DNA from: a virus
IMG/VR virus record: IMGVR_UViG_3300017963_000003
Coordinates: 96,001 to 160,000 of that record
Length of the DNA: 64,000 bases
Strand: one strand, 5' to 3'
Each line of letters opens with the position of its first letter. Within the stretch, counting starts at the first letter, position 1. The notes under the pieces were generated by a model. It was not told the origin of the DNA. It worked only from the letters and a program-made list of their open reading frames with translations, and searched no databases. This document shows positions 1,252 to 59,562 of this stretch, one piece after another. The position numbers and the translations under genes were made by a program.

Positions 1252-2016
1252 CTATCGCCTCTTGTAGAAGACCAGCATGCTCGGTCTATTGATGTTCGTG
1301 CCGTTGCAGTACATCTGAATCGTTTCTCCCGCAGAAACACTGATATTCAAGAAGAGCCCAGTGTACCCGCTCGAAGCCCCCACGACATTCAGGGAAGTGA
1401 TGGGAGAAGCGCCTCCATTCTTGCGCACCTCTGCTGTCCAGGAAAAAGTGCCGTTGGTGGTGGCACTGATAGCCATGATAGTAGCATTGAAGGGGAGGAG
1501 GAAGCCCCCTATGTTCGTCGGTACGCCCCCCGCACCACGCAGATAGCTGTTGGTGATGCTGCTATTACGACCTGCGGACATGAACGGTAGGTCCTGCAAC
1601 AGAGAAGGAGGCTGGAAACCGAAGCTCGTCGGGGTGAGCGCGGTCAGGACGTCGCCCGGCGTCAGTCCTGTTGCGACATGCGCAGCTCCGACAAGAGCAT
1701 GAGCCGGAACACCGCCAACTACGTCGGTCAGGTCTCTTCGACGAAGCTCTCGGATGTCGGAAGCGGTCAGGACGGTGATGGCTCCCAAGGAGTCAATCCA
1801 CGCAGATGCTTTTCCGCGATCTACGTAAGTCGCCAAGGTGTCCAGGAACAGCTGATCGAACTGAACCGTCCGAAGCTCTACCGACTTGGTCTCCCTGGGA
1901 CGGAGGACGATACTGGGGCCAGAGGCTCGGATAGAGCCATCCGAGTTGCCAGCGAGGGAGAGGTTCTCCCCTCTCTGAATTCGGCTCTGGATTACGAGAT
2001 AGGTGGTCTCGGACAT
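1252..2016 (-). CDS. Putative virion structural protein (254 aa)
   Basis: Abuts the collagen-like gene and shares a HALVGAxHxxxGLTPGxVLxALTPTSxGF module with it; beta-rich C-terminus. Function is inferred. Confidence 0.5.
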   Translation of the reverse strand: MSETTYLVIQSRIQRGENLSLAGNSDGSIRASGPSIVLRPRETKSVELRTVQFDQLFLDTLATYVDRGKASAWIDSLGAITVLTASDIRELRRRDLTDVVGGVPAHALVGAAHVATGLTPGDVLTALTPTSFGFQPPSLLQDLPFMSAGRNSSITNSYLRGAGGVPTNIGGFLLPFNATIMAISATTNGTFSWTAEVRKNGGASPITSLNVVGASSGYTGLFLNISVSAGETIQMYCNGTNINRPSMLVFYKRR

Positions 2017-2025
2017 CGACGTCCC

Positions 2026-2646
2026 CTAGAAATCCTGGGATGCCAAGATCTCGGAAACAGCCTCTTCCGGCGTATAGTTGTCCTCCCGCATCCGCGTCAG
2101 TTCGGCGCCGAACTGGCCAACCTGCAACCCTTGCTGGTTCAAGGCAACACCGACCTCGTCGATCCACTCGTCGTACCCTTGTTCGAGGCCCGCCAAGTTC
2201 ACTACGGTGCGCCCCATGTCGGTCAAGAGACCCGCAGGGCTTGCTTCGTGATGCAGAGCCCTGGCTGTAATCTTCCAATCCGCGTCCCAAGGCTCCTCGG
2301 GTAGCGTGCTCAGCATCGGATCGTCGCGACGGTTCTCTTCAGGAAGAGCTTCTTCGTGAAGTGCATCCGAGACGGCTCGTTCAGCAGACTCTTCGAGAAC
2401 GTTCGCCCCTTCGGCATCCATGACGGCCTTGGCGATCTCGACATCCGAGATCGCCTCGGACCCTTCCTCCAACCCAACGCCTTCCTGCTCTTCATACGGC
2501 CTCCACGCGCGCCTGGGAGGTACCAGAGCAGACAAAGACTTTCTCTGCGGACGCGAGGACACCCTGGGCGAAAGAGGGTCAGACGGGGCTCCTGCGAGCC
2601 TCTGAAGGTGCTGGAGGGCGCCGTTGGTCAATCCCGATTTACGCAT
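2026..2646 (-). CDS. Hypothetical acidic protein
   Basis: 206-aa ORF in a co-oriented gene run. Confidence 0.55.
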   Translation of the reverse strand: MRKSGLTNGALQHLQRLAGAPSDPLSPRVSSRPQRKSLSALVPPRRAWRPYEEQEGVGLEEGSEAISDVEIAKAVMDAEGANVLEESAERAVSDALHEEALPEENRRDDPMLSTLPEEPWDADWKITARALHHEASPAGLLTDMGRTVVNLAGLEQGYDEWIDEVGVALNQQGLQVGQFGAELTRMREDNYTPEEAVSEILASQDF

Positions 2647-2709
2647 AGGTATCCTCCTCGATAGGGGATACTATATCATCGGCGTGTTCGGGTTCTTAAA
2701 GAAGACGGT

Positions 2710-3210
2710 CTAGTAGCCGGCCTCGTAGAGAATATCGCCCCACGTGTCATCAAGACCACGTACTGACCGGAAAGTCTGGATGTCCACGTGATCCATCTGG
2801 CGACCAGCCCGGATGAACAAGATCGCCATGTCCTCCGGATAGAGTTCGGCCAAGGTCCCGTCGGGAAGCTCTACCGAGGACTCGGGGTTTCCTGACTTGT
2901 ACAAAGCCTGGGCTACCCGGTACTGGTAGTCATCCACGATGTTGTCGAAGTTGGCCTGCACGCGGCCCATGCCGCCACCGCCAGAAGACGGAGTACCGAA
3001 TGGAGCACCACCTTGCTGAACGTCAGCAGGGACGTACTCGCTGGTTCCGTACTCCAAACCGGCAGCCTGCGCTCGCTGGGCAGCCACGGAGAATGCCATC
3101 GGGGAGGTGCTGTTGCGGATACGCTCCAGCGCACTCTCAGAGTGGGTGACTGCGAACTCGGCCGGTTTTTGGTCAGGCGGCTCCCAGGTCCCAGGATTTC
3201 TCTTTGACAT
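2710..3210 (-). CDS. Hypothetical protein
   Basis: ORF with RBS (GGAGG) before MSKRNPG. Confidence 0.6.
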   Translation of the reverse strand: MSKRNPGTWEPPDQKPAEFAVTHSESALERIRNSTSPMAFSVAAQRAQAAGLEYGTSEYVPADVQQGGAPFGTPSSGGGGMGRVQANFDNIVDDYQYRVAQALYKSGNPESSVELPDGTLAELYPEDMAILFIRAGRQMDHVDIQTFRSVRGLDDTWGDILYEAGY

Positions 3211-3275
3211 GTCGACCTCCAAAGCACCTTACTGTAGCACAGAGCTATTCGGTCCTCTTAAAGATGGCGGCTCTT

Positions 3276-3707
3276 TCAGACACTCAGCGCTTTCAGACAC
3301 TCGGCACACAAGACATTCTTGTTGTCCGGGTGATGTTCGACATGCCCGCACCGAGGACAGATCCGTACAGGACCCGCCAACTCCCGAAGAGAGTCCTTCA
3401 CCTTGACCAGTACGTCGCGCTCCCTCTCTATCGTATCACGGAGGTGCCCCGCAACAGTTGCGGCATCCTTCCGGAGCTTGGATGCTTGGGCGCCAGTGAT
3501 GTACAGGTACTGATACGTCAGCATCCGGTCTTTCATCGCTGACAGATCTTTCATGAGTTGATCCCGTTCACCCCGCTCCTTGTACCGCTGGGCGTTGACC
3601 GTTTGAAGCTCTCCGCGAGCTTCGTTGTACAGGCGTTCGAACTCCTGCGCTCGTTCGAAAAGCTGTGCTTTGGTCATTCGGGAAAGACGGGGGGCAGTAT
3701 TGCTCAT
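3276..3707 (-). CDS. Coiled-coil protein with C-terminal Zn-finger (CPRC...CAEC)
   Basis: Heptad-like N-terminus and two CxxC motifs. Confidence 0.6.
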   Translation of the reverse strand: MSNTAPRLSRMTKAQLFERAQEFERLYNEARGELQTVNAQRYKERGERDQLMKDLSAMKDRMLTYQYLYITGAQASKLRKDAATVAGHLRDTIERERDVLVKVKDSLRELAGPVRICPRCGHVEHHPDNKNVLCAECLKALSV

Positions 3708-3762
3708 CGATCACCTCCTGTAGGCTAGTACTATACCACAGGATGGTGGACTTCGCAACTAT

Positions 3763-4194
3763 TTAGTAGGAACCGACCTGATAGGGGTATGGATTTCGAC
3801 GAAGATAATCGTCCCACCATTGAGAACCTTCGGAAACGTAAGACTGCGGCTCCGCCCTCTTCTTCTCCTGAGCCTCTTCCAAGGTATTCATACGTTCCGA
3901 GATCTCATTGATAGTAGTGGCGAGGCTGTTGCTCCATTCGATGGCTTGTCCGCTCCACGCCGCCAAGGCCTCGACCTGAGCTTGAAGCTCCCAGATCTGG
4001 ATCTCCAGGTCCTCTATCTGTTCTTCAGAGAGGGTCTGCTCTGCCCGGAGCTGTTCCAGGAGTGCATGCAGCTCCTCTACGTTGGCAGCCGCCCCCTCCA
4101 GCTCGGCATCCAGATCGTAGACCTCTTCCTCGGGGACCTCGGCGCCTACCACCTGGGCGATACGGACCAGTGATGCGTTGAGTAGACCTGACAT
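3763..4194 (-). CDS. Acidic coiled-coil hypothetical protein
   Basis: Glu/Gln/Leu-rich heptads. Confidence 0.55.
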   Translation of the reverse strand: MSGLLNASLVRIAQVVGAEVPEEEVYDLDAELEGAAANVEELHALLEQLRAEQTLSEEQIEDLEIQIWELQAQVEALAAWSGQAIEWSNSLATTINEISERMNTLEEAQEKKRAEPQSYVSEGSQWWDDYLRRNPYPYQVGSY

Positions 4195-4226
4195 GAGCCT
4201 ACCCTACCACAAGAGGGGTCGGAAAC

Positions 4227-4946
4227 CTAAAGAGACTCTGATCCCTGCGAAAGGCCGCTCTTCAGTTCCTCGTAGTCGAATTTGGAGCCCAGGCACTCTT
4301 TGATCGTGACAACATCGCCACCGAAACCAACCACATTCCCGCAGAGCAGGTGAAGATGGGAACGTACGTACTGCTCCCCCTCGGCAAAGCGGATGCCCTT
4401 CCCAGTAGGTCGGTACTTGCCAGCCTTGGCTCCGGACTCGTTCTCGTGAGCTTCGCGCTCGATCAGACCCCAGTGCACGAGGTACGATCCGTCGGTGCTG
4501 GCCTTGGTGGTCGACGGCACGAGTTCTCGGGTGGAGTACCAACGAGGTTCCTCCTTGAAGGCTCGAACAAGCTTGAGCAAGAAGAGAGCCATCTCGGTGT
4601 GGAGCTTGCGCCGGTACAGCTTGACGAGACGACCGCAACAAGGGCAGGATGCCCCTTTGTCGGTCATCGACATCATCTTCGTCCGAGCCTCTTCCAGTGT
4701 GACCTCTGGGCTCTCCGTATCCGGAGGCAGTTCTACCCGAGGACCCCAAGAGTAGATATCCGAAGGGAAGTGAGTGTACATGAAGCCCAGGATTCCCACG
4801 CTCTTCGCTACGCCTCCTTGGAAGAACACCAGCGCAGGGGCAGCCTCAGCACCCTCCGACAGCTTCACCCAAATACGCTGCGTTCGGGCTACCGCCGTAC
4901 CGATTTCCCCCGAGATTGTTGGTGGTTTCTCGAACCATTGTGACAT
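4227..4946 (-). CDS. Hypothetical protein with CPCC Zn-knuckle and winged-helix-like C-terminus
   Basis: CPCCGR motif; LVHWGLIER...GKYRPTGKG resembles a wHTH wing (inference). Confidence 0.5.
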   Translation of the reverse strand: MSQWFEKPPTISGEIGTAVARTQRIWVKLSEGAEAAPALVFFQGGVAKSVGILGFMYTHFPSDIYSWGPRVELPPDTESPEVTLEEARTKMMSMTDKGASCPCCGRLVKLYRRKLHTEMALFLLKLVRAFKEEPRWYSTRELVPSTTKASTDGSYLVHWGLIEREAHENESGAKAGKYRPTGKGIRFAEGEQYVRSHLHLLCGNVVGFGGDVVTIKECLGSKFDYEELKSGLSQGSESL

Positions 4947-5007
4947 TTTGCCCTCCTGTGCGTATGCTCAGGGGAACCATACCACAATATATAGGTGAGG
5001 TCAAGTA

Positions 5008-5478
5008 TTAGCGGACGAAGGGAGACCGACGAGACGCGACGAACTGCTGATCCCAGAGGTTTTGTGCCCTCTCGTCTTCAGAGGCGAAGCTCATGGCTCC
5101 GGTGTCGGACTCCGCGCTGGCCTCGCTGAGGACGTCCCAGACTTCCTCGCTGGTCGCTCCGGCTTGGAGCTGGTCGAGGAGGCTCGCTGCGATCACAGTA
5201 TCCACGAGCATCTCTACCCCGCTCTCGTCACGGACATACGCCAGGCTCTTCGAAGGGTCCTGGCTCGGAACGGGTTCCACAACAAAACTGCCGATCCCCT
5301 CAAACCCAGAAGGGTCGAGCCCCAACGCCTCTTGCTCACCAGGAGCGCCCCCGATGTTCTGCGGGTTGAAGTAGTCGAGCTTCTGCTGGAGCACATTGGC
5401 CAGGGCCGTGTGGCGTTGCTTGTAGTACGATTCCAGGCGCCCCAGGGCTCCGGTCTCCGCGATGCGTCTCATCTTCAT
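5008..5478 (-). CDS. Hypothetical protein
   Basis: 156-aa ORF with RBS. Confidence 0.55.
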   Translation of the reverse strand: MKMRRIAETGALGRLESYYKQRHTALANVLQQKLDYFNPQNIGGAPGEQEALGLDPSGFEGIGSFVVEPVPSQDPSKSLAYVRDESGVEMLVDTVIAASLLDQLQAGATSEEVWDVLSEASAESDTGAMSFASEDERAQNLWDQQFVASRRSPFVR

Positions 5479-5531
5479 GGCTAACCTCCTGAGAGCTTGT
5501 ACTGTAGCACGAAGATCGTCGGAATTATAAA

Positions 5532-6188
5532 CTACAGAGCGTCGTCAAGGTCTTCCGGAAGTTGCTGCTGGGCCTGAGGGGCGAATAGCTCTTCCGGAGA
5601 TTTCAGTTCGGGAAGCTCCTCTTCGGGATCAGGTTCCTTGGAAGACGCTTGAGGGGGTTCTATAGCGGCCAAAACGTCATCGAGGTCCAGGCCCTCCGCA
5701 GAGCCTTCCTCTTCTGCCAGCGCCTCTTCGTCCACCCCGGCCAAAGGATCGTCTGCGGATACTGCGATGCCGTACAGAGCACCGGCACCCATTCCGTAGC
5801 CGGAACCGCTCCCTCCGCCCCCGCCAACTCCCCGAGCAGCCCGGACGGGCTTGAAGGGGTTTTCCTCCACGACCGGTTCCGGGAGAGAAGCATTCGACCC
5901 CAACGCAATCATATCCAACGCAGCTCGCATCGCCTGCATGCTGTGTTGCACCCCTTGCAGCTGGTGGTAGAGATAGCTCGTCTTCTGAGCCTCGAACTCC
6001 ACCTTCTGCTTGAGCAGTTCGTACGTCTTGTCGGTCTTACGCTCCACACGCTCTTCGTCGGAGTCGTCGAGCGCATGGAAGAGGCTGGTGCCGCTCATCG
6101 ACAAGGCAGTCAAGATGCCTCCGATGACCAGACCGACCTTGGTGTACGGGTTCTGGGGGACCTTTGATTTACGAGCAGCTTCCGGCAT
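5532..6188 (-). CDS. Membrane-anchored acidic protein
   Basis: N-terminal hydrophobic helix VGLVIGGILTALSMSG, then coiled coil and Glu/Asp-rich tail. Confidence 0.55.
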   Translation of the reverse strand: MPEAARKSKVPQNPYTKVGLVIGGILTALSMSGTSLFHALDDSDEERVERKTDKTYELLKQKVEFEAQKTSYLYHQLQGVQHSMQAMRAALDMIALGSNASLPEPVVEENPFKPVRAARGVGGGGGSGSGYGMGAGALYGIAVSADDPLAGVDEEALAEEEGSAEGLDLDDVLAAIEPPQASSKEPDPEEELPELKSPEELFAPQAQQQLPEDLDDAL

Positions 6189-6235
6189 GGAGTCCTCCTC
6201 TCAGGATTATTCTACCATGCCTTTTTGTGTACAGG

Positions 6236-6844
6236 CTAAAGTCGATGCGAATTGTCCCACGGACCTTTCTGGGAAAGAATGAACCTTTCTCCGCTGCGCC
6301 ATCGACGCTCCTCCACGTCGAGAACATGTTCGAAGTGCTCGATCACAGTGGGGTTGTGTACCGCGCATAGAACTTGCGCCGAGATCTCTGCCAGCGAATA
6401 GAGCGCACCGATGAGCCGGTAGCAACTTCGGATACTCAACCCGATGTCAGGTTCGTCGAGAAGAACCACAGGAGAAGGCGACTGCCCGTCTCGGTTGAGG
6501 TCCCTCACGCTCTTCAGAACTCCCTCCAGGAGGAAGTTCATGGCCTGCCCGTGAGACATGAGCCGGGTAGAGAGGGCGACACGAGGAGCCGTAGAGAAGG
6601 CGTCCACGAACAGCGTCCGGGGGTTGTGGCGTTCGGCATCGTAGGCCAGTACCGGGCTAGGGTTCCGCATCTTCAGAAGCACCTCGGACCTCTTACCTTG
6701 CGAGGTCAACAAGATGGACTCCAGGAGGGTCGTCTTACCAGCGCCCTGATCCCCCACGAGGATGTTGATGCCGCTGCTGAGATCGAAATACGTACCCTTC
6801 TCGAAGCATCGAAACTCCTCGTCGAACACGACACGCTCGATCAT
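6236..6844 (-). CDS. Small ABC/AAA_21-type ATPase
   Basis: Walker A GDQGAGKT, signature-like MSHGQ, Walker B/D-loop VVLLDEPD, H-loop AVHN. Confidence 0.8.
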   Translation of the reverse strand: MIERVVFDEEFRCFEKGTYFDLSSGINILVGDQGAGKTTLLESILLTSQGKRSEVLLKMRNPSPVLAYDAERHNPRTLFVDAFSTAPRVALSTRLMSHGQAMNFLLEGVLKSVRDLNRDGQSPSPVVLLDEPDIGLSIRSCYRLIGALYSLAEISAQVLCAVHNPTVIEHFEHVLDVEERRWRSGERFILSQKGPWDNSHRL

Positions 6845-11091: not shown

Positions 11092-11139
11092 CTCGAATTG
11101 TTGTGAAGGAATAAGCAGCAACGCTGTTTGCTGCTCGTA

Positions 11140-11151
11140 GATCTTTGAAAA
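11140..11151 (+). promoter_or_regulatory. boxA-like antitermination site in the tRNA cluster
   Basis: GATCTTTGAAAA, preceded by hairpin AGCAGCAA-CGCTGT-TTGCTGCT (boxB-like). Confidence 0.55.
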
Positions 11152-11165
11152 TTGAGCAGCAAACA

Positions 11166-11257
11166 GGAGGGATGGCTGAAATGGCAATAGCGGCGGTCTC
11201 GAAAATCGCAGCCCACGGCGTCGTACCGTGGTGGGGGTTCGAATCCCTCTCCCTCCT
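11166..11257 (+). tRNA. tRNA-Ser(CGA)
   Basis: Arm GCGGT-CTCGAAA-ATCGC, long variable arm. Confidence 0.85.
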
Positions 11258-12137: not shown

Positions 12138-13375
12138 CCGCACGTCAAACCTCTACAACTACTTCGGGGTTCATCACTAGGATGCATTCGACGTCCCATC
12201 CGTACAAGTCTGGAGGTACGTCGTCACCTTCGCTGCCGTGCTGACGAGCATTACCGAATCGCGTGAGCCATTGACCTTCTTCGGTGAGGTAGATAACGTC
12301 CCAGAACTCTCGCATCCGCTCGAAGTCTATGAAAACGTGACGAGGGAGAACCCTGTCACTCCTGGAGGGGGTAAGCTCGGATCAGCGCCAAGAGATCTGT
12401 GTACCTGTGAACGGTCTTGACCCTACAGTGCGGGCAGAGCAGAAAGTCAAAATACTCCTCTAGGTCCTCTATGTGGAATTCTTCCTCTTCGCACCACTCC
12501 CTCCAAGGGTCCCTTTTCCTACCACGATCATCCTGATAGATCGGACCAGCCCAGAGACCACCAGAAGGCTTGCAGAACCTACGATTGGCTACCTCGTTGT
12601 ACTTCTGCATATCGAAACACGGAGAACCGTAGTGGCGGTATATGGTGCTCGGAGGGAGACGCATTCAAGGGGTCTCCGCCGAATGGACTATGAGCAACTG
12701 TAGACGGTGCGCCCCGTCCACGTAGGCCTTCCCGCTCGCATTCGCTTCCTCCGGGTAATGGATCTCGTGCCGAATTCCAGTAACACAGTCCCTGAAGTGC
12801 TCCTCTCCGTCGTGATACCCAACGACTTCGATCTTGAGATCGGGCGGCAGAACCTTGAGCACCTTCAACAGTTCATCAACCCTCAACGCCATCTCCACCC
12901 TCCTTTGCGTCTTCTATCTTTTCCTGAAGAGTACGTGTGTCGTGCTTTCCCTCGTTGAACTCTTCATGGAGACGCTGCTTCAACTCGGGGTCCTCGCTGC
13001 CGACGAGGAAGGGGTCGCCGTCCATGATTCCCGCAGCACGCTTGTTGACGACATACCCTCCAGGACCCTCCTGGAACATGTACTTCGACTCCACCTTGGC
13101 CTTGACCTGAACGAACTCCAGCTTCGACATCGAACTCCGTAGCTTGTTGTAGGACTTCCCCAGAGCGCCTATCGCCTTGTGCTGCCGCTCGATGGTCTGC
13201 CGTTGGCCGGAGAGCTGCTCCTCGAAGAATTCGCACGCTCGCTGGAGACGATCAACCCGGCGACGAAGAGCGCAGTTCTCGTTTCGCAGCTCTTCTTCCC
13301 TACGGCGTTGATGCTCGCATGCGCAAGGATCGTCTGGGTAGCTCGTGCTGCTGCACTTTGAACACTCGTGATCAC

Positions 13376-30590: not shown

Positions 30591-30756
30591 GGCGCTTCGC
30601 CAGATCACAACAATTTCAGCAAGTTTGCTCTATGATTTCGAGCGGTCCACCACGACTGCCGTCGCGCCCAGAATTTCTTCAATGGTTTCGAGCACCAGGC
30701 CTCACCACGACCACAGCGCTCGCCAAATTGTCAAAGAACCAACCGACCCGAACCGC
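30591..30756 (-). promoter_or_regulatory. CRISPR leader with boxA-like site
   Basis: Minus-strand GTTCTTTGACA at 30729-30739; direct repeats ATG(A/G)TTTCGAGC at 30632 and 30682. Confidence 0.65.
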
Positions 30757-57100: not shown

Positions 57101-57217
57101 GTTGCCCTCCGTATGGGTGCTGGTGTCATCCAGCTTACAGACCCACCTTACCATATCAGCAGGTGGCTGTCAATATACCGGAGGTTCTTTTTTCGCGGAA
57201 AGTTTGTTCAGGTGGGA

Positions 57218-58885
57218 TTACTGCTGCGGACGCTGCGACCGGGGGACCGATCCGCTCATCTCCCCAGCGAACCGGAGGATGGCATCCGACCACCCGCCGA
57301 GGATGAACGTGCGGTCGTAGAACTCGGGCACGATGGTGTCCTGGTAACCAGCAATCTGCACCAGGTAGACCATGACGTTCGGGTTCACCTTGTTCCGGTA
57401 CTCGATGATGAGCTTCGGAACATCGATGTGATTCCCGCTGCCCGGCCACACGTACCGCATGTAGTCGGCCGAGTTGACCCCGTACAGACCACCGTGACCG
57501 GCCTGCATGTCCGAGTACACGAACACGTGGTCCCAATGCTCGCCGTTCTTGATCGCCTGGTCCCAGAACAACCAGATACCGTTCTCGGTGCCAGCGCCGA
57601 TACGCTGACCCTTCCGGTTGAGTTGCTCAGTCTGCTCGAACACCGAGGCCTTCTTACGAATCGGCATCGTCACCAGACGGTCACCGAACACTCCGGCATA
57701 CCCTTCCTCGGAAGCCATCCCAGTGATGACACCGGTCAGGTTACCGATCTCGGCCACGTGCATCGTCCCCGACGAGGAGGTCATCGAACCCCAGGCAGAG
57801 CCGCTGTTGTCGCACAGAGACATGCACCGACCCTTGAAGACCGGAACGTTCTCCAAGATCGCCACCTCCAGACACTCCTCGACGGCGTCCAGGAGCAACG
57901 GAGACGGGTTCTCCGCCTTCAGGGCATTGTAGGCCGCGAAGTACCGGAACGGCAGCTGACGTCCCTCAGGGGCACCGTCGACGAGCTTGCCCACGAACTC
58001 CTTGGGGTCCACGCCGGCCTGAGTCAGGTTCCGCAGGTTCCGCAACAGCGCCATGTGGCCCATCTTCTCGATGGACTCACGCCACGCAGCCTTGGTCGAC
58101 CCCTTCTCCGAGATCAACGCCTCCCAGGTATCACCGGTCACCTTCAGCTCACCCTTGGAGAGCTTCGACACCGCATCCGACGCCGGATGGCAGATGTTGA
58201 CGACGTCCACGAGCTTCACCTCGCGAGACTCCATCCGGTACTTGGCCAGCTGGTACTCGCTGAACCCTTCCAGGACGAGCTTCCACGCCTTCTTGAGCGC
58301 GTTCGGAATCCGCTGTCGTCCGTACTTCTGGATCTGGTAGGCCAGTTGCACAGCCGGTTCATCCGCTCGCACCATGACCTGCTGGGCGTACTTGCGCACC
58401 AATCCCGTACCCTTGACCGACGGGTGATGGGCCGCGCGGACCATGATCACCTGCGGGGTCGTACGGATGTTGTACGTGCGCCCCCGCAGCTCAACCGCCA
58501 GCTGGAGAGTCCCCTCGGGGTCGTGCCCCAGGGCCGCGTCGATGGCGGACTCCATCAGCTCGGCCGGCTCCATGCCCCTCCACTCCCGAGGGTCTTTGGC
58601 GTCCAAGGTCTCCCGGAGATGCTGCAACTGGCGGTTGTCGAGGCGGCACCACCTGTCCATCGTCATCACGTTCTTGCGCCGCCTCGTCTGATCCCCGTGG
58701 TAGTACATCGGCTCACCGAAGAAGCACGAGGCCGCAGCCATCCGCAGCTGGTCGAGGGGGTTGTCCACGGAGTAGGAGCGCCCGCCCATCCAGTTCAGAT
58801 GCGCGTTCTCCGCTGCGTACTCTTCGTGTTCTCGTCGTTGCCGTCGATGCTTGACCGACGCCGTCGCAGTTCGATTGATGCCCAT
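57218..58885 (-). CDS. rsr: Ro60/Rsr-like TROVE + vWA RNA-binding protein
   Basis: FFGEPMYY, LAVELR, RADEP, YQLAKY, TWEALIS, MALLRNLRNL, QLPFRYFAAY, vWA MIDAS CDNSGS, VYSDMQ. Confidence 0.9.
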   Translation of the reverse strand: MGINRTATASVKHRRQRREHEEYAAENAHLNWMGGRSYSVDNPLDQLRMAAASCFFGEPMYYHGDQTRRRKNVMTMDRWCRLDNRQLQHLRETLDAKDPREWRGMEPAELMESAIDAALGHDPEGTLQLAVELRGRTYNIRTTPQVIMVRAAHHPSVKGTGLVRKYAQQVMVRADEPAVQLAYQIQKYGRQRIPNALKKAWKLVLEGFSEYQLAKYRMESREVKLVDVVNICHPASDAVSKLSKGELKVTGDTWEALISEKGSTKAAWRESIEKMGHMALLRNLRNLTQAGVDPKEFVGKLVDGAPEGRQLPFRYFAAYNALKAENPSPLLLDAVEECLEVAILENVPVFKGRCMSLCDNSGSAWGSMTSSSGTMHVAEIGNLTGVITGMASEEGYAGVFGDRLVTMPIRKKASVFEQTEQLNRKGQRIGAGTENGIWLFWDQAIKNGEHWDHVFVYSDMQAGHGGLYGVNSADYMRYVWPGSGNHIDVPKLIIEYRNKVNPNVMVYLVQIAGYQDTIVPEFYDRTFILGGWSDAILRFAGEMSGSVPRSQRPQQ

Positions 58886-58939
58886 TAGGATACCTCACCT
58901 CGAACGGCAGAGCGTTCACTGCTGCCGTGATAACAAAAA

Positions 58940-59008
58940 GCAGGGAGAATAACGGGACGGTGTTGGCCAGAGTGATAGTCTGAAGGAACCGTCCGATCAC
59001 TACCCTGC
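58940..59008 (-). ncRNA. Short Y-like RNA
   Basis: GCAGGGTAGTGATCGGACGGT...ACCGTCCCGTTATTCTCCCTGC; paired ends with the AGTGA/TTCT internal-loop motif. Confidence 0.65.
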
Positions 59009-59022
59009 GCTACTCGTAAAAA

Positions 59023-59164
59023 ACGCGAAGAGAATTAGCGGAAGGGTGTCTTTACCACCGATGCTCTGTCCGCTGAGCTACTTCCCTCCAGCTAGGGAAG
59101 GCGGGATTTGAACCCACGACCCTCGGTCCCTTGAGAAGTATCCCTACCTGTCACTGCTTCGCGT
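59023..59164 (-). ncRNA. YrlA-like Y RNA (tRNA mimic)
   Basis: ACGCGAAGCAGTGACAGGTAGGGATACTTC...GGTTCAAATCC (T arm)-CTTCCCT/AGGGAAG closed acceptor-TAGCTCAGCGGACAGAGC (D arm)...TTCTCTTCGCGT. Confidence 0.85.
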
Positions 59165-59252
59165 ACAGTCTCATACCAGTTTGCCCTCCGTAAAAGATGC
59201 CCGGCGGGGCGTCACCCTATCGAGCTGTCAAGCAGCACCGGGCAAAAAAAAA

Positions 59253-59323
59253 TTGGGGAGCAAAAAACGCGACGGGGGTCTTTCGTCCATTGAATGAAGT
59301 ACCCGCCACTGTCACTTCCCCAA
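59253..59323 (-). ncRNA. Short Y-like RNA (YrlB-like)
   Basis: TTGGGGAAGTGACAGTGGCGGGTACTTC...CCCCCGTCGCGTTTTTTGCTCCCCAA. Confidence 0.7.
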
Positions 59324-59359
59324 ACTCACAAACCACCCGCTTGGTTCCTTGAAAAGTGC

Positions 59360-59500
59360 CTCACCGGAGAAAAGTCGACAGGGAAACGTTAGCGCTCTTT
59401 CCAACTGAGCTACACCCCGACTGACGTCGGGGTGACAGGACTCGAACCTGCGACCTCTCACTTAGCAAGTGGAGTAGCCCTACCTGTCACTACCCGTGAG
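59360..59500 (-). ncRNA. YrlA-like Y RNA (tRNA mimic)
   Basis: CTCACGGGTAGTGACAGGTAGGGCTACTCC...GGTTCGAGTCC-CACCCCGAC(GTCA)GTCGGGGTG-TAGCTCAGTTGGAAAGAGC...TTTTCTCCGGTGAG. Confidence 0.88.
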
Positions 59501-59504
59501 CCAC

Positions 59505-59562
59505 TTTTCAAAGAACCAAGCTTCGAGGTTCCCACCTTAGCAGAGGAGAATGAGGCTGTCAA
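59505..59562 (-). promoter_or_regulatory. Promoter and boxA of the Y RNA-rsr operon
   Basis: Minus strand TTGACA-17nt-TAAGGT (59562-59534), then GTTCTTTGAAAA (59516-59505). Confidence 0.7.

What the first reader, a model, noticed from the sequence alone, without database searches (positions are those of the whole stretch)
57218..59562. Ro60 gene preceded by a tandem array of Y RNAs under one antiterminated promoter
Seen: promoter, boxA, then YrlA-like (59360-59500), short Y (59253-59323), YrlA-like (59023-59164), short Y (58940-59008), then rsr. All four share an AGTGA 5-prime strand facing a pyrimidine-rich 3-prime strand (TTCT in three, TTGCT in one) inside a terminal stem, and three add CAG..GG.TACT. 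The two long ones carry a permuted T arm-closed acceptor-D arm module. Known: bacterial Ro60/Y RNPs act in RNA decay and repair, and a few phages encode them. Inference: an expanded, diversified Y-RNA repertoire could serve as decoys for host anticodon nucleases or tRNA-binding defences, or as interchangeable tethers that retarget Ro60.
Basis: partly seen in the sequence, partly recalled or inferred. Interest (0 to 1): 0.82.

Follow-up and report, generated by a model that had tools for sequence, protein, structure and literature searches.

The report
Phage Ro60 operon, four Y RNAs
A 192-kb phage carries one operon with four small structured RNAs followed by the gene for the ring-shaped RNA-binding protein Ro60; this protein-RNA partnership is already known, but here the RNAs use a variant docking "handle" that the public RNA database misses, and one of them displays a complete rearranged tRNA.

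Summary
ORF 57218-58885(-) is a Ro60: it has a Pfam TROVE match, an invariant DxSxS motif, and a predicted fold whose 13 best PDB matches are all Ro60. Upstream lie four RNA units. Covariance models built only from other genomes find all four: U1 98.8 bits, U3 86.8, U2 42, U4 31.9. Nothing comparable occurs elsewhere in the 192-kb genome.

All four share a handle: closing stem, AGUGA, helix, GGNUACUUC ... UUCUC, closing stem. This handle recurs beside related Ro60 genes in about 100 loci (132 hits, all on the gene's strand) and shows strong covariation. Rfam detects only the tRNA-like cores of U1 and U3, at about half the YrlA threshold, and nothing for U2 and U4.

One recurrent promoter-like element precedes the array. 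The "boxA" is an exact rRNA-type word, but it is also the 5' arm of U1's 29-bp stalk and is absent from 106 related loci, so antitermination is unproven.

U1 holds a complete permuted tRNA whose anticodon-like loop equals that of the phage's tRNA-Ser(GCU). Arrays of three or more units are commoner in viral contigs.

I class it as a new variant of a known kind. This scan has met the same theme and handle on other DNA.

The parts
59534..59562 (-). Promoter-like element TTGACA-N17-TAAGGT with TGn (extended -10). The predicted transcription start is about 59527, some 6 nt before the U1 stalk.
   Evidence: Exact pattern: 2 matches in the window against 0.00 expected. The looser TTGACA-N16-18-TAnnnT gives 13 matches against 0.33 expected. 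None lies between 57174 and 59533.
59505..59516 (-). boxA-like word GUUCUUUGAAAA, embedded in the 5' arm of the U1 stalk.
   Evidence: It is the only exact copy in the window. It is absent from 106 related loci. The same 12-mer appears in Mollicute rRNA-spacer primers in the literature. Function is untested.
59339..59521 (-). U1: a long Y RNA. It has a 29-bp outer stalk (59493-59521 pairing with 59339-59367), the handle (AGUGA at 59487-59491 facing UUUUCUC), and a complete permuted tRNA module: anticodon-like arm with loop UUGCUAA, variable loop AGGUC, T arm, 9-bp closed acceptor stem and D arm.
   Evidence: Inverted repeat I1. Fold -100.6 kcal/mol, z = -7.1. R2 98.8 bits, E 7e-21 for 59361-59499. 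Rfam YrlA 35.9 bits. Anticodon-arm test 5 of 5 pairs. The loop is identical to that of the phage tRNA-Ser(GCU).
59253..59323 (-). U2: a short Y RNA consisting of the handle only (closing stem UUGGGGA/UCCCCAA, AGUGA, helix 2, GGGUACUUC, loop). The 3' strand is the variant UUUUUUGCUC. A run of 9 U follows.
   Evidence: R1 42 bits, E 2.5e-9. Fold z = -2.4. U-tract.
59198..59244 (-). GC-rich spacer hairpin between U2 and U3, followed by AUCUUUU. It may be a weak terminator or a processing element.
   Evidence: Inverted repeat I2, 18 nt, 72% complementary. Fold z = -0.6, not better than shuffles. No model hit. Weak evidence.
59024..59163 (-). U3: a long Y RNA with the handle (CGCGAAG/CUUCGCG, AGUGA facing AAUUCUC) and a module of T arm, 7-8-bp closed acceptor stem and D arm. 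It has no anticodon-like hairpin. A run of 6 U follows.
   Evidence: R2 86.8 bits, E 4e-18. R1 37.5 bits with an 84-nt apical insertion. Rfam YrlA 33.4 bits. No anticodon-arm-like hairpin.
58940..59008 (-). U4: a short Y RNA (GCAGGG/CCCUGC, AGUGA, GGACGG/CCGUCC, GGUUCCUUC variant, ACACC, UAUUCUC). UUUUUGUU follows.
   Evidence: R1 31.9 bits, E 1.8e-6. Fold z = -4.4.
58904..58928 (-). Mini-hairpin in the rsr leader: a 7-bp stem enclosing CAGUGA..CUC, about 20 nt before the start codon. It could be a degenerate fifth handle or a leader element.
   Evidence: R1 19.4 bits with filters off. No counterpart in other loci. Fold z = -1.2. Weak evidence.
57218..58885 (-). rsr: a Ro60 (TROVE HEAT-repeat ring plus vWA domain with DNSGS MIDAS motif), 555 aa.
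   Evidence: Pfam TROVE. D359-N-S-G-S363 is invariant in 24 homologs. AlphaFold pLDDT 77.9, pTM 0.73. The top 13 Foldseek PDB hits are all Ro60, TM 0.5-0.7. About 60-65% identity to thousands of TROVE proteins.
57145..57173 (-). Next promoter-like element, for the downstream topoisomerase-like gene. It marks the end of the rsr transcription unit.

Best explanation
This is a self-contained phage Ro60/Y-RNA operon. One sigma-70-type promoter drives a precursor of about 2.3 kb: U1 (long), U2 (short), U3 (long), U4 (short), then the rsr mRNA.

Each RNA is closed by a stem and carries the same handle: AGUGA facing UUCUC, a variable helix, then GGNUACUUC. I infer that this handle is the docking site for the phage Ro60. 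It replaces the CGAA-type motif of published YrlA RNAs.

The apical ends differ. U1 carries a complete permuted tRNA with an anticodon-like loop. U3 carries a T arm, closed acceptor and D arm module. U2 and U4 carry plain loops. The operon would therefore yield several distinct Ro60 particles.

By analogy with Deinococcus and Salmonella RYPER and with Thermus phage phiLo, these RNAs most likely gate Ro60 and tether it to host factors such as PNPase or tRNA-binding proteins, because the phage encodes no PNPase, RtcB or CCA-adding enzyme.

The U-tracts after U2-U4 and the 29-bp stalk of U1 probably define the RNA ends, through partial termination and RNase processing.

Shown: the anatomy, the conservation, the covariation, the linkage to Ro60 and the Ro60 fold. 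Inferred: expression as discrete RNAs, Ro60 binding and the effector.
For: - Window-free models recover all four units and nothing else in the genome except tandem-tRNA junctions.
- The handle motif occurs 58 times in the 500 nt upstream of Ro60 on its strand, and 0 times on the other strand, in 84 loci.
- All 132 R1 hits are on the Ro60 strand.
- Covariation score is 0.61 against 0.15 for shuffles. Helix 2 is 78% paired against about 48% when slid. For the long class, 25 of 32 pairs show compensatory changes.
- Units also lie downstream of Ro60 in some loci (L008, L009, L084, Atuin), which fits trans-acting RNAs.
- The Ro60 fold is confirmed, and the closest solved relative is phage phiLo Ro60, which binds two upstream Y-like RNAs and host PNPase (PMC12135203).
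- M. smegmatis YrlA and YrlB are processed from one precursor upstream of rsr (PMC4201824).
- There is a single promoter-like element.
- The phage has no PNPase, RtcB or CCA-adding enzyme.
Against: - There are no expression or binding data.
- The closing-stem statistic is partly circular, because I delimited units by their closing stem.
- U3 alone folds no better than shuffles (z = -1.6).
- The Rfam YrlA scores are about half the gathering threshold.
- The protein is only 13-21% identical to solved Ro60s.
- The tether-to-PNPase step rests on analogy with distant systems.
- Three stem-plus-U-tract structures upstream of rsr could stop most transcripts before the gene, so a single transcript is not assured.
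Confidence: 0.72

Rival explanations
1. Decoy or bait system. The tRNA-like heads, above all U1 with its complete permuted tRNA and a genuine anticodon loop, soak up or misdirect host tRNA-directed defences such as anticodon nucleases and tRNA-binding sensors. Ro60 would protect the bait or bring an exonuclease.
For: - U1 has a 5-bp stem and a 7-nt loop UUGCUAA with U33 and A37, then a class-I variable loop AGGUC before the T arm.
- Such hairpins occur in 9 of 15 long units against 6-7% of shuffles. The 'anticodon' differs between units: GCU, UGU, UUU, GAU, GCA, AUG, UGG.
- The loop is identical to that of the phage's own tRNA-Ser(GCU).
- Arrays are larger in viral contigs.
- The phage also carries 14 tRNA genes, a common answer to tRNA-targeting defence.
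Against: - Only one of the four units has an anticodon-like arm. U2 and U4 have no tRNA part at all.
- The same unit types, anticodon-like arms included, occur beside Ro60 in cellular genomes (Deinococcus L052, Chthonomonadaceae L009, Bacillota MAG L070). The design is therefore not a phage counter-defence invention.
- The acceptor end is closed.
- No defence or nuclease partner is identified.
- The ARAGORN re-ordering test did not discriminate: 51% were still called after shuffling.
Confidence: 0.14
2. Cis-acting leader. The structures are not stable trans RNAs. They form a long regulatory 5' UTR that sets rsr expression through successive stem-plus-U-tract attenuators, read through with the help of the boxA-like element. 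Ro60 may feed back by binding its own leader, for example at the mini-hairpin at 58904-58928.
For: - Three of four units are followed directly by 5-9 U.
- There is a single promoter.
- An exact boxA-type word sits at about +12 to +23.
- A handle-like mini-hairpin lies 20 nt before the start codon.
Against: - Homologous units lie downstream of Ro60 or among tRNA genes in other genomes, where they cannot be leaders.
- Family-wide, only 20% of units have a U-tract.
- Conservation of loop sequences and of tRNA tertiary-interaction positions points to a folded RNA product.
- The mini-hairpin and the boxA word are not conserved in any related locus.
Confidence: 0.1
3. Decayed tRNA genes or a chance resemblance. 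The long units would be remnants of tandem tRNA genes (the T arm of one plus the D arm of the next), and the short ones would be ordinary terminator hairpins.
For: - Tandem-tRNA junctions do give partial R2 hits of 20-35 bits. Chen et al. 2014 warned about this artefact.
- The phage has a tRNA array.
Against: - ARAGORN finds no tRNA at the locus.
- U1 and U3 match R2 end to end, handle included, at 87-99 bits against 35 or less for tRNA junctions.
- The acceptor stem is closed by a tetraloop.
- The short units match a 68-position model with invariant AGUGA, UACUUC and UUCUC.
- Linkage to Ro60 is strict and strand-specific.
Confidence: 0.02

Closest known systems
Bacterial and actinophage Rsr (Ro60) with YrlA/YrlB Y RNAs (Salmonella, M. 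smegmatis, mycobacteriophages; Chen et al. 2014, PMC4201824; Rfam RF02553; Wang et al. 2018, 10.1101/312249)
   Same: - The RNAs are encoded next to Ro60 on the same strand.
- A long 5'/3' stem carries the presumed Ro60 site.
- YUAY is followed by a hairpin, a T arm, a closed acceptor-like stem and a D arm.
- There is a second, shorter Y RNA.
- In M. smegmatis both RNAs come from one precursor upstream of rsr.
   Different: - The 5' motif is AGUGA facing UUCUC instead of GNCGAAN0-1G.
- Rfam scores are about half the gathering threshold, and the short units are invisible to Rfam.
- There are four units instead of one or two.
- U1's 'V' hairpin has anticodon-arm geometry, whereas published YrlA is described as lacking an anticodon loop.
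- The protein belongs to a divergent clade that phmmer does not link to D. radiodurans Rsr or Xenopus Ro60.
Thermus phage phiLo Ro60 with Yrl1 and Yrl2 (NAR 2025, PMC12135203; PDB 9KOP, 9L5Y)
   Same: - It is a phage-encoded Ro60 with Y-like RNAs directly upstream.
- It is the closest solved structure by sequence (E 2e-16) and by fold (TM 0.59-0.70).
- That phage also lacks its own PNPase and uses the host's.
   Different: - phiLo has two RNAs, found through the CGAA motif, with no tRNA-like module reported.
- Here there are four RNAs with the AGUGA handle, two of them tRNA-like.
- The proteins are about 21% identical.
Deinococcus radiodurans Rsr-Yrn1-PNPase (RYPER)
   Same: It shows the working principle that I infer here: a Y RNA docks on Ro60 through its stem and tethers an exoribonuclease through its other end. 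It is also a locus with several Y RNAs.
   Different: - Yrn1 has a metazoan-like binding helix and the opposite order of T and D elements.
- No binding data exist here.
Arthrobacter phage Atuin (OK040794.2, 194 kb), Ro-like gene region, with unannotated RNAs found here
   Same: - It has the same AGUGA/UUCUC handle and T, acceptor, D modules (R2 83.1 and 81.7 bits).
- At least six units surround a phage Ro60 gene.
- It is a cultured phage, so it is an experimental model for this class.
   Different: - The units flank the gene on both sides and are interleaved with tRNA genes at 2-8 nt spacing.
- Its Ro60 is only 27.5% identical.
- There is no boxA-like word or long stalk.
rRNA-operon leaders (boxA plus RNase III processing stalk)
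   Same: - An exact GUUCUUUGAAAA word follows the promoter closely.
- A 29-bp stalk encloses a structured, untranslated RNA.
   Different: - The word lies inside the stalk arm.
- There is no evidence of Nus-factor binding.
- It is unique to this phage among 107 loci.
- The host and its boxA are unknown.

Membership tests
Ro60 / Rsr (TROVE + vWA ring protein) | TROVE domain above the Pfam threshold | tested here: met
   PF05731 43.3 bits against a cut-off of 23, E 3.7e-11, but only residues 252-321 match.
Ro60 / Rsr (TROVE + vWA ring protein) | Full-length fold: HEAT-repeat ring followed by a vWA domain | tested here: met
   AlphaFold model pLDDT 77.9, pTM 0.73. Foldseek ranks 1-13 are all Ro60 chains (phiLo, D. 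radiodurans, Xenopus, human) aligned over 470-535 columns, probability 1.0. The next hits are isolated vWA domains.
Ro60 / Rsr (TROVE + vWA ring protein) | MIDAS motif DxSxS in the vWA domain | tested here: met
   D359-N360-S361-G362-S363 is invariant across 24 aligned homologs.
Ro60 / Rsr (TROVE + vWA ring protein) | Binds Y RNAs or misfolded RNAs | not testable with these tools
   Needs pull-down or EMSA.
YrlA (Rfam RF02553) | Score at or above the Rfam gathering threshold (69 bits) | tested here: not met
   U1 35.9 bits and U3 33.4 bits. Homologous long units elsewhere score 31.7-44.1 bits.
YrlA (Rfam RF02553) | T arm, closed acceptor-like stem and D arm in that order, with tRNA-type conserved bases | tested here: met
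   U1 and U3. There is covariation in the T, AS and D stems of the class.
YrlA (Rfam RF02553) | 5' GNCGAAN0-1G motif (presumed Rsr site) | tested here: not met
   AGUGA occupies that position in all four units and family-wide.
YrlA (Rfam RF02553) | Conserved YUAY before the V hairpin | tested here: met
   CUAC (U1), AUAC (U3) and GUAC (U2). The family consensus is GGUUACUUC.
YrlA (Rfam RF02553) | Encoded within 4 kb of Ro60 on the same strand | tested here: met
   55-640 nt upstream, on the same strand.
(A)CC helix 2', UUCUC, closing stem, next to a Ro60 gene | tested here: met
   U1 98.8 and U3 86.8 bits (R2). U2 42 and U4 31.9 bits (R1). The models hold no window sequence.
rrn-type boxA antitermination element | boxA consensus word shortly downstream of the promoter | tested here: met
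   Exact GTTCTTTGAAAA at 59505-59516, about 12-23 nt after the predicted start, and unique in the window. That this word is a Firmicute/Mollicute boxA core rests on my own knowledge plus rRNA-spacer primer hits.
rrn-type boxA antitermination element | Conserved among related operons | tested here: not met
   It is found in none of 106 related Ro60 loci.
rrn-type boxA antitermination element | Matches the host's own boxA; binds NusB/NusE; promotes read-through | not testable with these tools
   The host is unknown. This needs biochemistry or reporters.

The most novel reading that the evidence does not exclude
Large phages carry an expandable set of Ro60 adaptor RNAs. A constant AGUGA/UUCUC handle docks the phage Ro60. 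Interchangeable heads, including complete permuted tRNAs whose anticodon loops copy particular tRNAs (here tRNA-Ser GCU), act as baits. These baits would capture or misdirect host tRNA-directed factors such as anticodon nucleases, modification enzymes and defence sensors, or deliver them to a Ro60-bound exonuclease. The result would be a programmable RNA-decoy and retargeting system. In this phage the untranslated array would be kept transcribed by a borrowed rRNA-type boxA.
Probability: 0.12. Interest if true: 0.85.

Novelty: new variant of a known kind. Interest (0 to 1): 0.55.

Why it matters
Ro60/Y RNA particles are conserved from bacteria to humans, yet what Y RNAs do is still poorly understood. 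Only a handful of bacterial and phage examples have been studied.

This locus, with about 100 related ones, defines a Y RNA handle that current annotation misses. Rfam finds nothing for the short units and gives only sub-threshold hits for the long ones. No Y RNA is annotated in the four named phage records that I inspected.

The handle pairs with a divergent Ro60 clade, which gives a natural test of how Ro60 recognises its RNAs. The heads are modular: none, a T arm only, T-acceptor-D, or a complete permuted tRNA with varied anticodon loops. Arrays are larger in viral contigs. Together these suggest that phages diversify Ro60 adaptors.

The same RNA class occurs in the cultured Arthrobacter phage Atuin, so these ideas can be tested directly.

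Tried and rejected
- Near-identity DNA search in phage records found no match.
- Single-protein locus searches found no relatives. An alignment query was needed.
- Rfam at gathering threshold found nothing at the locus.
- The sigma-70 and terminator consensus scanner gave 0 sites. The promoter was found only through its recurrence.
- I re-ordered the tRNA-like modules and ran ARAGORN. It called 11 of 14 as tRNAs, but 51% of controls with the anticodon segment shuffled were also called. I rejected this as a test and replaced it with a direct hairpin test.
- Fifth unit: the mini-hairpin at 58904-58928 scores 19.4 bits, has no counterpart elsewhere and folds no better than shuffles.
- The spacer hairpin at 59198-59244 is not significant.
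- Ubiquitin-like cascade next to Ro60, a lead from earlier scan notes, is absent here.
- Phage-encoded RtcB, PNPase/RNase PH and CCA-adding enzyme are all absent.
- Host identification through replication proteins failed: the best cultured relatives are 33-49% identical, with mixed hosts.
- The two Wolin-lab reviews (PMC10870794, PMC6542706) are not held. I therefore cannot exclude that the AGUGA handle is mentioned there. A full-text search for AGUGA with Y RNA and Ro60 found nothing.
- A 5' signature match at 12360(-) is not hit by either model, and I treat it as chance.
Full report
WHAT IS THERE

The window is part of a complete 192,260-bp virus record with direct terminal repeats. Tail-fibre, helicase, ThyX and topoisomerase-like genes lie around the locus, and a 14-gene tRNA array lies 47 kb away.

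ORF 57218-58885(-) encodes a 555-aa protein with these features:
- It has a Pfam TROVE match of 43.3 bits against a cut-off of 23.
- It has a DNSGS MIDAS motif that is invariant among 24 homologs.
- Its AlphaFold model (pLDDT 77.9, pTM 0.73) has 13 best PDB matches that are all Ro60 proteins aligned over nearly full length. Only isolated vWA domains follow.
- By sequence it reaches only the Thermus phage phiLo Ro60 among solved structures (E 2e-16).
- It has thousands of relatives at about 60-65% identity in Myxococcota, Chloroflexota and metagenomes.

It is therefore a Ro60, but of a divergent clade.

THE FOUR RNA UNITS

Read on the minus strand, each unit has the same plan. A closing stem is followed by AGUGA, then a variable helix, then GG-N-UAC-UUC. 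An apical part follows. The 3' strand of the helix then returns, followed by a U/C-rich strand ending in UUCUC (UUGCUC in U2), and finally the closing stem.

Rfam finds nothing at gathering threshold. In sensitive mode it gives YrlA hits for the two long units only: 35.9 bits (E 5e-6) and 33.4 bits (E 3e-5), against a gathering score of 69.

INDEPENDENT TEST WITH OTHER GENOMES

I fetched 79 cellular and 27 viral loci that encode related Ro60 proteins.

- The 5' signature occurs 58 times in the 500 nt directly upstream of the gene on its own strand. It never occurs there on the other strand, and occurs 0-10 times in any other bin.
- Forty non-redundant short units from these loci align with invariant AGUGA, UACUUC and UUCUC.
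- The covariation score is 0.61 against 0.15 for shuffles. Helix 2, which played no part in my selection, is 78% paired against about 48% when partners are slid. Eight of its nine pairs change on both sides.
- The 99% pairing of the closing stem is partly circular, because I delimited units by it.

A covariance model of these 40 units (R1) hits the window at U2 (42 bits, E 2.5e-9), U3 (37.5 bits, with the tRNA-like part as an 84-nt insertion) and U4 (31.9 bits). It hits nowhere else in the window or the genome.

A second model was built from 14 long units of other loci (R2; compensatory changes at 25 of 32 pairs). It hits U1 at 98.8 bits (E 7e-21) and U3 at 86.8 bits (E 4e-18), both end to end. 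The only other hits are junctions of tandem tRNA genes at 35 bits or less. Chen et al. 2014 warned about this artefact.

Over 100 loci, R1 gives 132 hits. All are on the Ro60 strand. Nearly all lie within about 700 nt upstream, and a few lie just downstream.

REFINEMENTS OF THE ANATOMY

1. U1 is closed by a 29-nt inverted repeat, 59493-59521 pairing with 59339-59367, 90% complementary. The whole unit folds at -100.6 kcal/mol, z = -7.1. Extended closing stems of 12-22 bp recur in other loci.
2. The 'boxA' word is the middle of the 5' arm of this stalk.
3. U2, U3 and U4 are followed directly by 9, 6 and 5 U. Family-wide, 20% of units have such a tract against a 2% background.
4. A mini-hairpin with CAGUGA..CUC lies 20 nt before the start codon (19.4 bits). 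This explains why another first-stage note counted five units. It is not conserved elsewhere and folds no better than shuffles. The U2-U3 spacer hairpin is equally unsupported.
5. U1 is 70% identical to a unit of the 395-kb viral contig L081 but only 55% identical to U3. The two long units are therefore old paralogs and not a recent duplication.

PROMOTER AND boxA

TTGACA-N16-18-TAnnnT, usually preceded by TGn, occurs 13 times in the window against 0.33 expected. One copy lies at 59534-59562. The next on this strand lies at 57145-57173, after the rsr stop. The sequence therefore supports one transcription unit starting about 6 nt before the U1 stalk.

GTTCTTTGAAAA occurs once exactly in the window. 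To my knowledge it is the boxA core of Firmicute and Mollicute rRNA operons, and the literature hits are Mollicute rRNA-spacer primers.

Its position, just after a promoter and ahead of about 640 nt of untranslated structured RNA, would suit a Nus-dependent element that prevents Rho termination. Against this, it is absent from all 106 related loci, it is base-paired in the final fold, and the host is unknown.

I put antitermination at roughly one in three. From established knowledge, rrn-type antitermination mainly counters Rho-dependent termination. It would not by itself explain read-through of the three stem-plus-U-tract structures.

THE tRNA-LIKE HEADS

Published YrlA is described as lacking an anticodon loop (10.1101/312249). 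Earlier notes of this scan prompted me to re-examine the hairpin after UUAC.

In U1 it reads as a 5-bp stem with one bulge, a 7-nt loop UUGCUAA (U at position 2, A at position 6), then AGGUC and the T arm. This is the geometry of an anticodon arm plus a class-I variable loop.

A direct test finds such hairpins in 9 of 15 long units against 6-7% of shuffled segments, with differing triplets. U3 has none.

U1's loop is identical to the anticodon loop of the phage's own tRNA-Ser(GCU).

U1 is thus a complete permuted tRNA. Its acceptor end is closed by a tetraloop, and its D-arm/anticodon-arm junction is opened into the Ro60 handle.

An ARAGORN test on re-ordered modules did not discriminate, and I discarded it.

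HOW COMMON ARE ARRAYS?

Counting 5' signatures in de-duplicated loci, three or more units occur in 10 of 22 viral loci and 5 of 60 cellular loci (Fisher p = 4e-4). Among loci with at least one unit, the medians are 3 and 2. These figures are not corrected for phylogeny, and IMG/VR contigs may include cellular DNA.

Large arrays are not exclusive to phages. A Nitrospiraceae MAG has five units upstream and one downstream of its Ro60 gene.

Heads are modular across the family: none, a T arm with other hairpins, T-acceptor-D, or unrelated hairpins.

Among named phages, Arthrobacter phage Atuin has at least six unannotated units of this class around its Ro-like gene, interleaved with tRNA genes. 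Gordonia phage Neville has a classical YrlA-type hit. Bacillus phage G gives only weak hits.

MECHANISM

Best reading (0.72): an operon that supplies a phage Ro60 with four adaptor RNAs. They share a docking handle and differ in their heads.

The phage encodes no PNPase, RtcB or CCA-adding enzyme. Any effector must therefore be host-encoded, as shown for phage phiLo, whose Ro60 and two upstream Y-like RNAs assemble with host PNPase (PMC12135203).

Shown here: anatomy, conservation, covariation, linkage and protein fold. Inferred: expression, processing, binding and partners.

The decoy idea (0.14) gains from U1's anticodon loop. It is weakened because three units lack such a loop and because the same designs occur in cellular genomes. 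A purely cis-regulatory leader (0.10) is unlikely, given homologous units downstream of Ro60 and among tRNA genes. Decayed tRNAs or chance (0.02) are excluded by the model scores and the strand-specific linkage.

COMPARISON WITH WHAT IS KNOWN, AND NOVELTY

The kind is known. Ro60 with adjacent Y RNAs, including tRNA mimics, has been reported in over 250 bacteria and 22 phages, and two RNAs come from one precursor in M. smegmatis (PMC4201824). A phage example has been studied biochemically (PMC12135203).

What differs here:
- The handle is AGUGA/UUCUC instead of the CGAA motif. I could not find this handle in Rfam 15 or in the held literature.
- There are four units.
- U1's head is a complete permuted tRNA.
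- There is a boxA-like word in a long stalk.

Two reviews that might mention the handle are not held.

Earlier agents of this scan reported the same handle in a 338-kb phage, and similar arrays elsewhere. My models were built before I read those notes, and the results agree with them.

Verdict: real, well supported, a new variant of a known kind, of moderate interest.

Noticed in passing
window 11118-11172 (+): A perfect 13-bp hairpin has a 17-nt loop holding GATCTTTGAAAA, a one-mismatch copy of the boxA-like word of the Y-RNA operon. It lies between two tRNA-Ser genes inside the phage tRNA array, the other long untranslated operon.
   Followed up: partly
window 34729-59562: The promoter-like element TTGACA-N16-18-TAnnnT (mostly with TGn) occurs 13 times against 0.33 expected. 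Four plus-strand copies share TTGACAGCCGGG...CTGCTATACT. Nine minus-strand copies head successive small gene cassettes.
   Followed up: partly
L113 (Arthrobacter phage Atuin OK040794.2, record 91476-94353): At least six unannotated Y RNA units with the AGUGA/UUCUC handle flank the 'Ro-like RNA binding protein' gene. They are packed 2-8 nt from annotated tRNA genes, and two score 82-83 bits with R2.
   Followed up: partly
L023, L028, L029, L031 and many Sorangium/Polyangium loci, about 2190-2290: The first unit in Myxococcota has AGUGA...GGUUACUUC and a T arm, then ends ...CUCCUGGCACC without a UUCUC strand. This is a third unit type that looks like a tRNA 3' half with an NCC-like end. R1 does not model it.
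   Followed up: no
L008 (Nitrospiraceae MAG), 1760-6370: Five short units lie upstream and one downstream of Ro60, followed by six tRNA genes. This is the largest cellular array seen, and possibly a prophage.
   Followed up: no
L110 (Bacillus phage G NC_023719.1), locus 879-1937: An unannotated gap of about 1 kb lies upstream of the TROVE gene gp540. It has only weak hits to R1 (15.9 bits) and R2 (24.9 bits). Its Y RNAs, reported by Chen et al. 2014, seem to be of another handle type.
   Followed up: partly
L081 (395-kb IMG/VR contig), 1246-2398: This is the closest viral Ro60 (63% identity). It has five units in the order long, long, long, T-arm-only, short before the gene, an arrangement like the window's.
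   Followed up: partly
window 30728-30739 (-): Another one-mismatch copy of the boxA-like word (GTTCTTTGACAA) lies just after the stop of a 642-aa transposase-like ORF.
   Followed up: no
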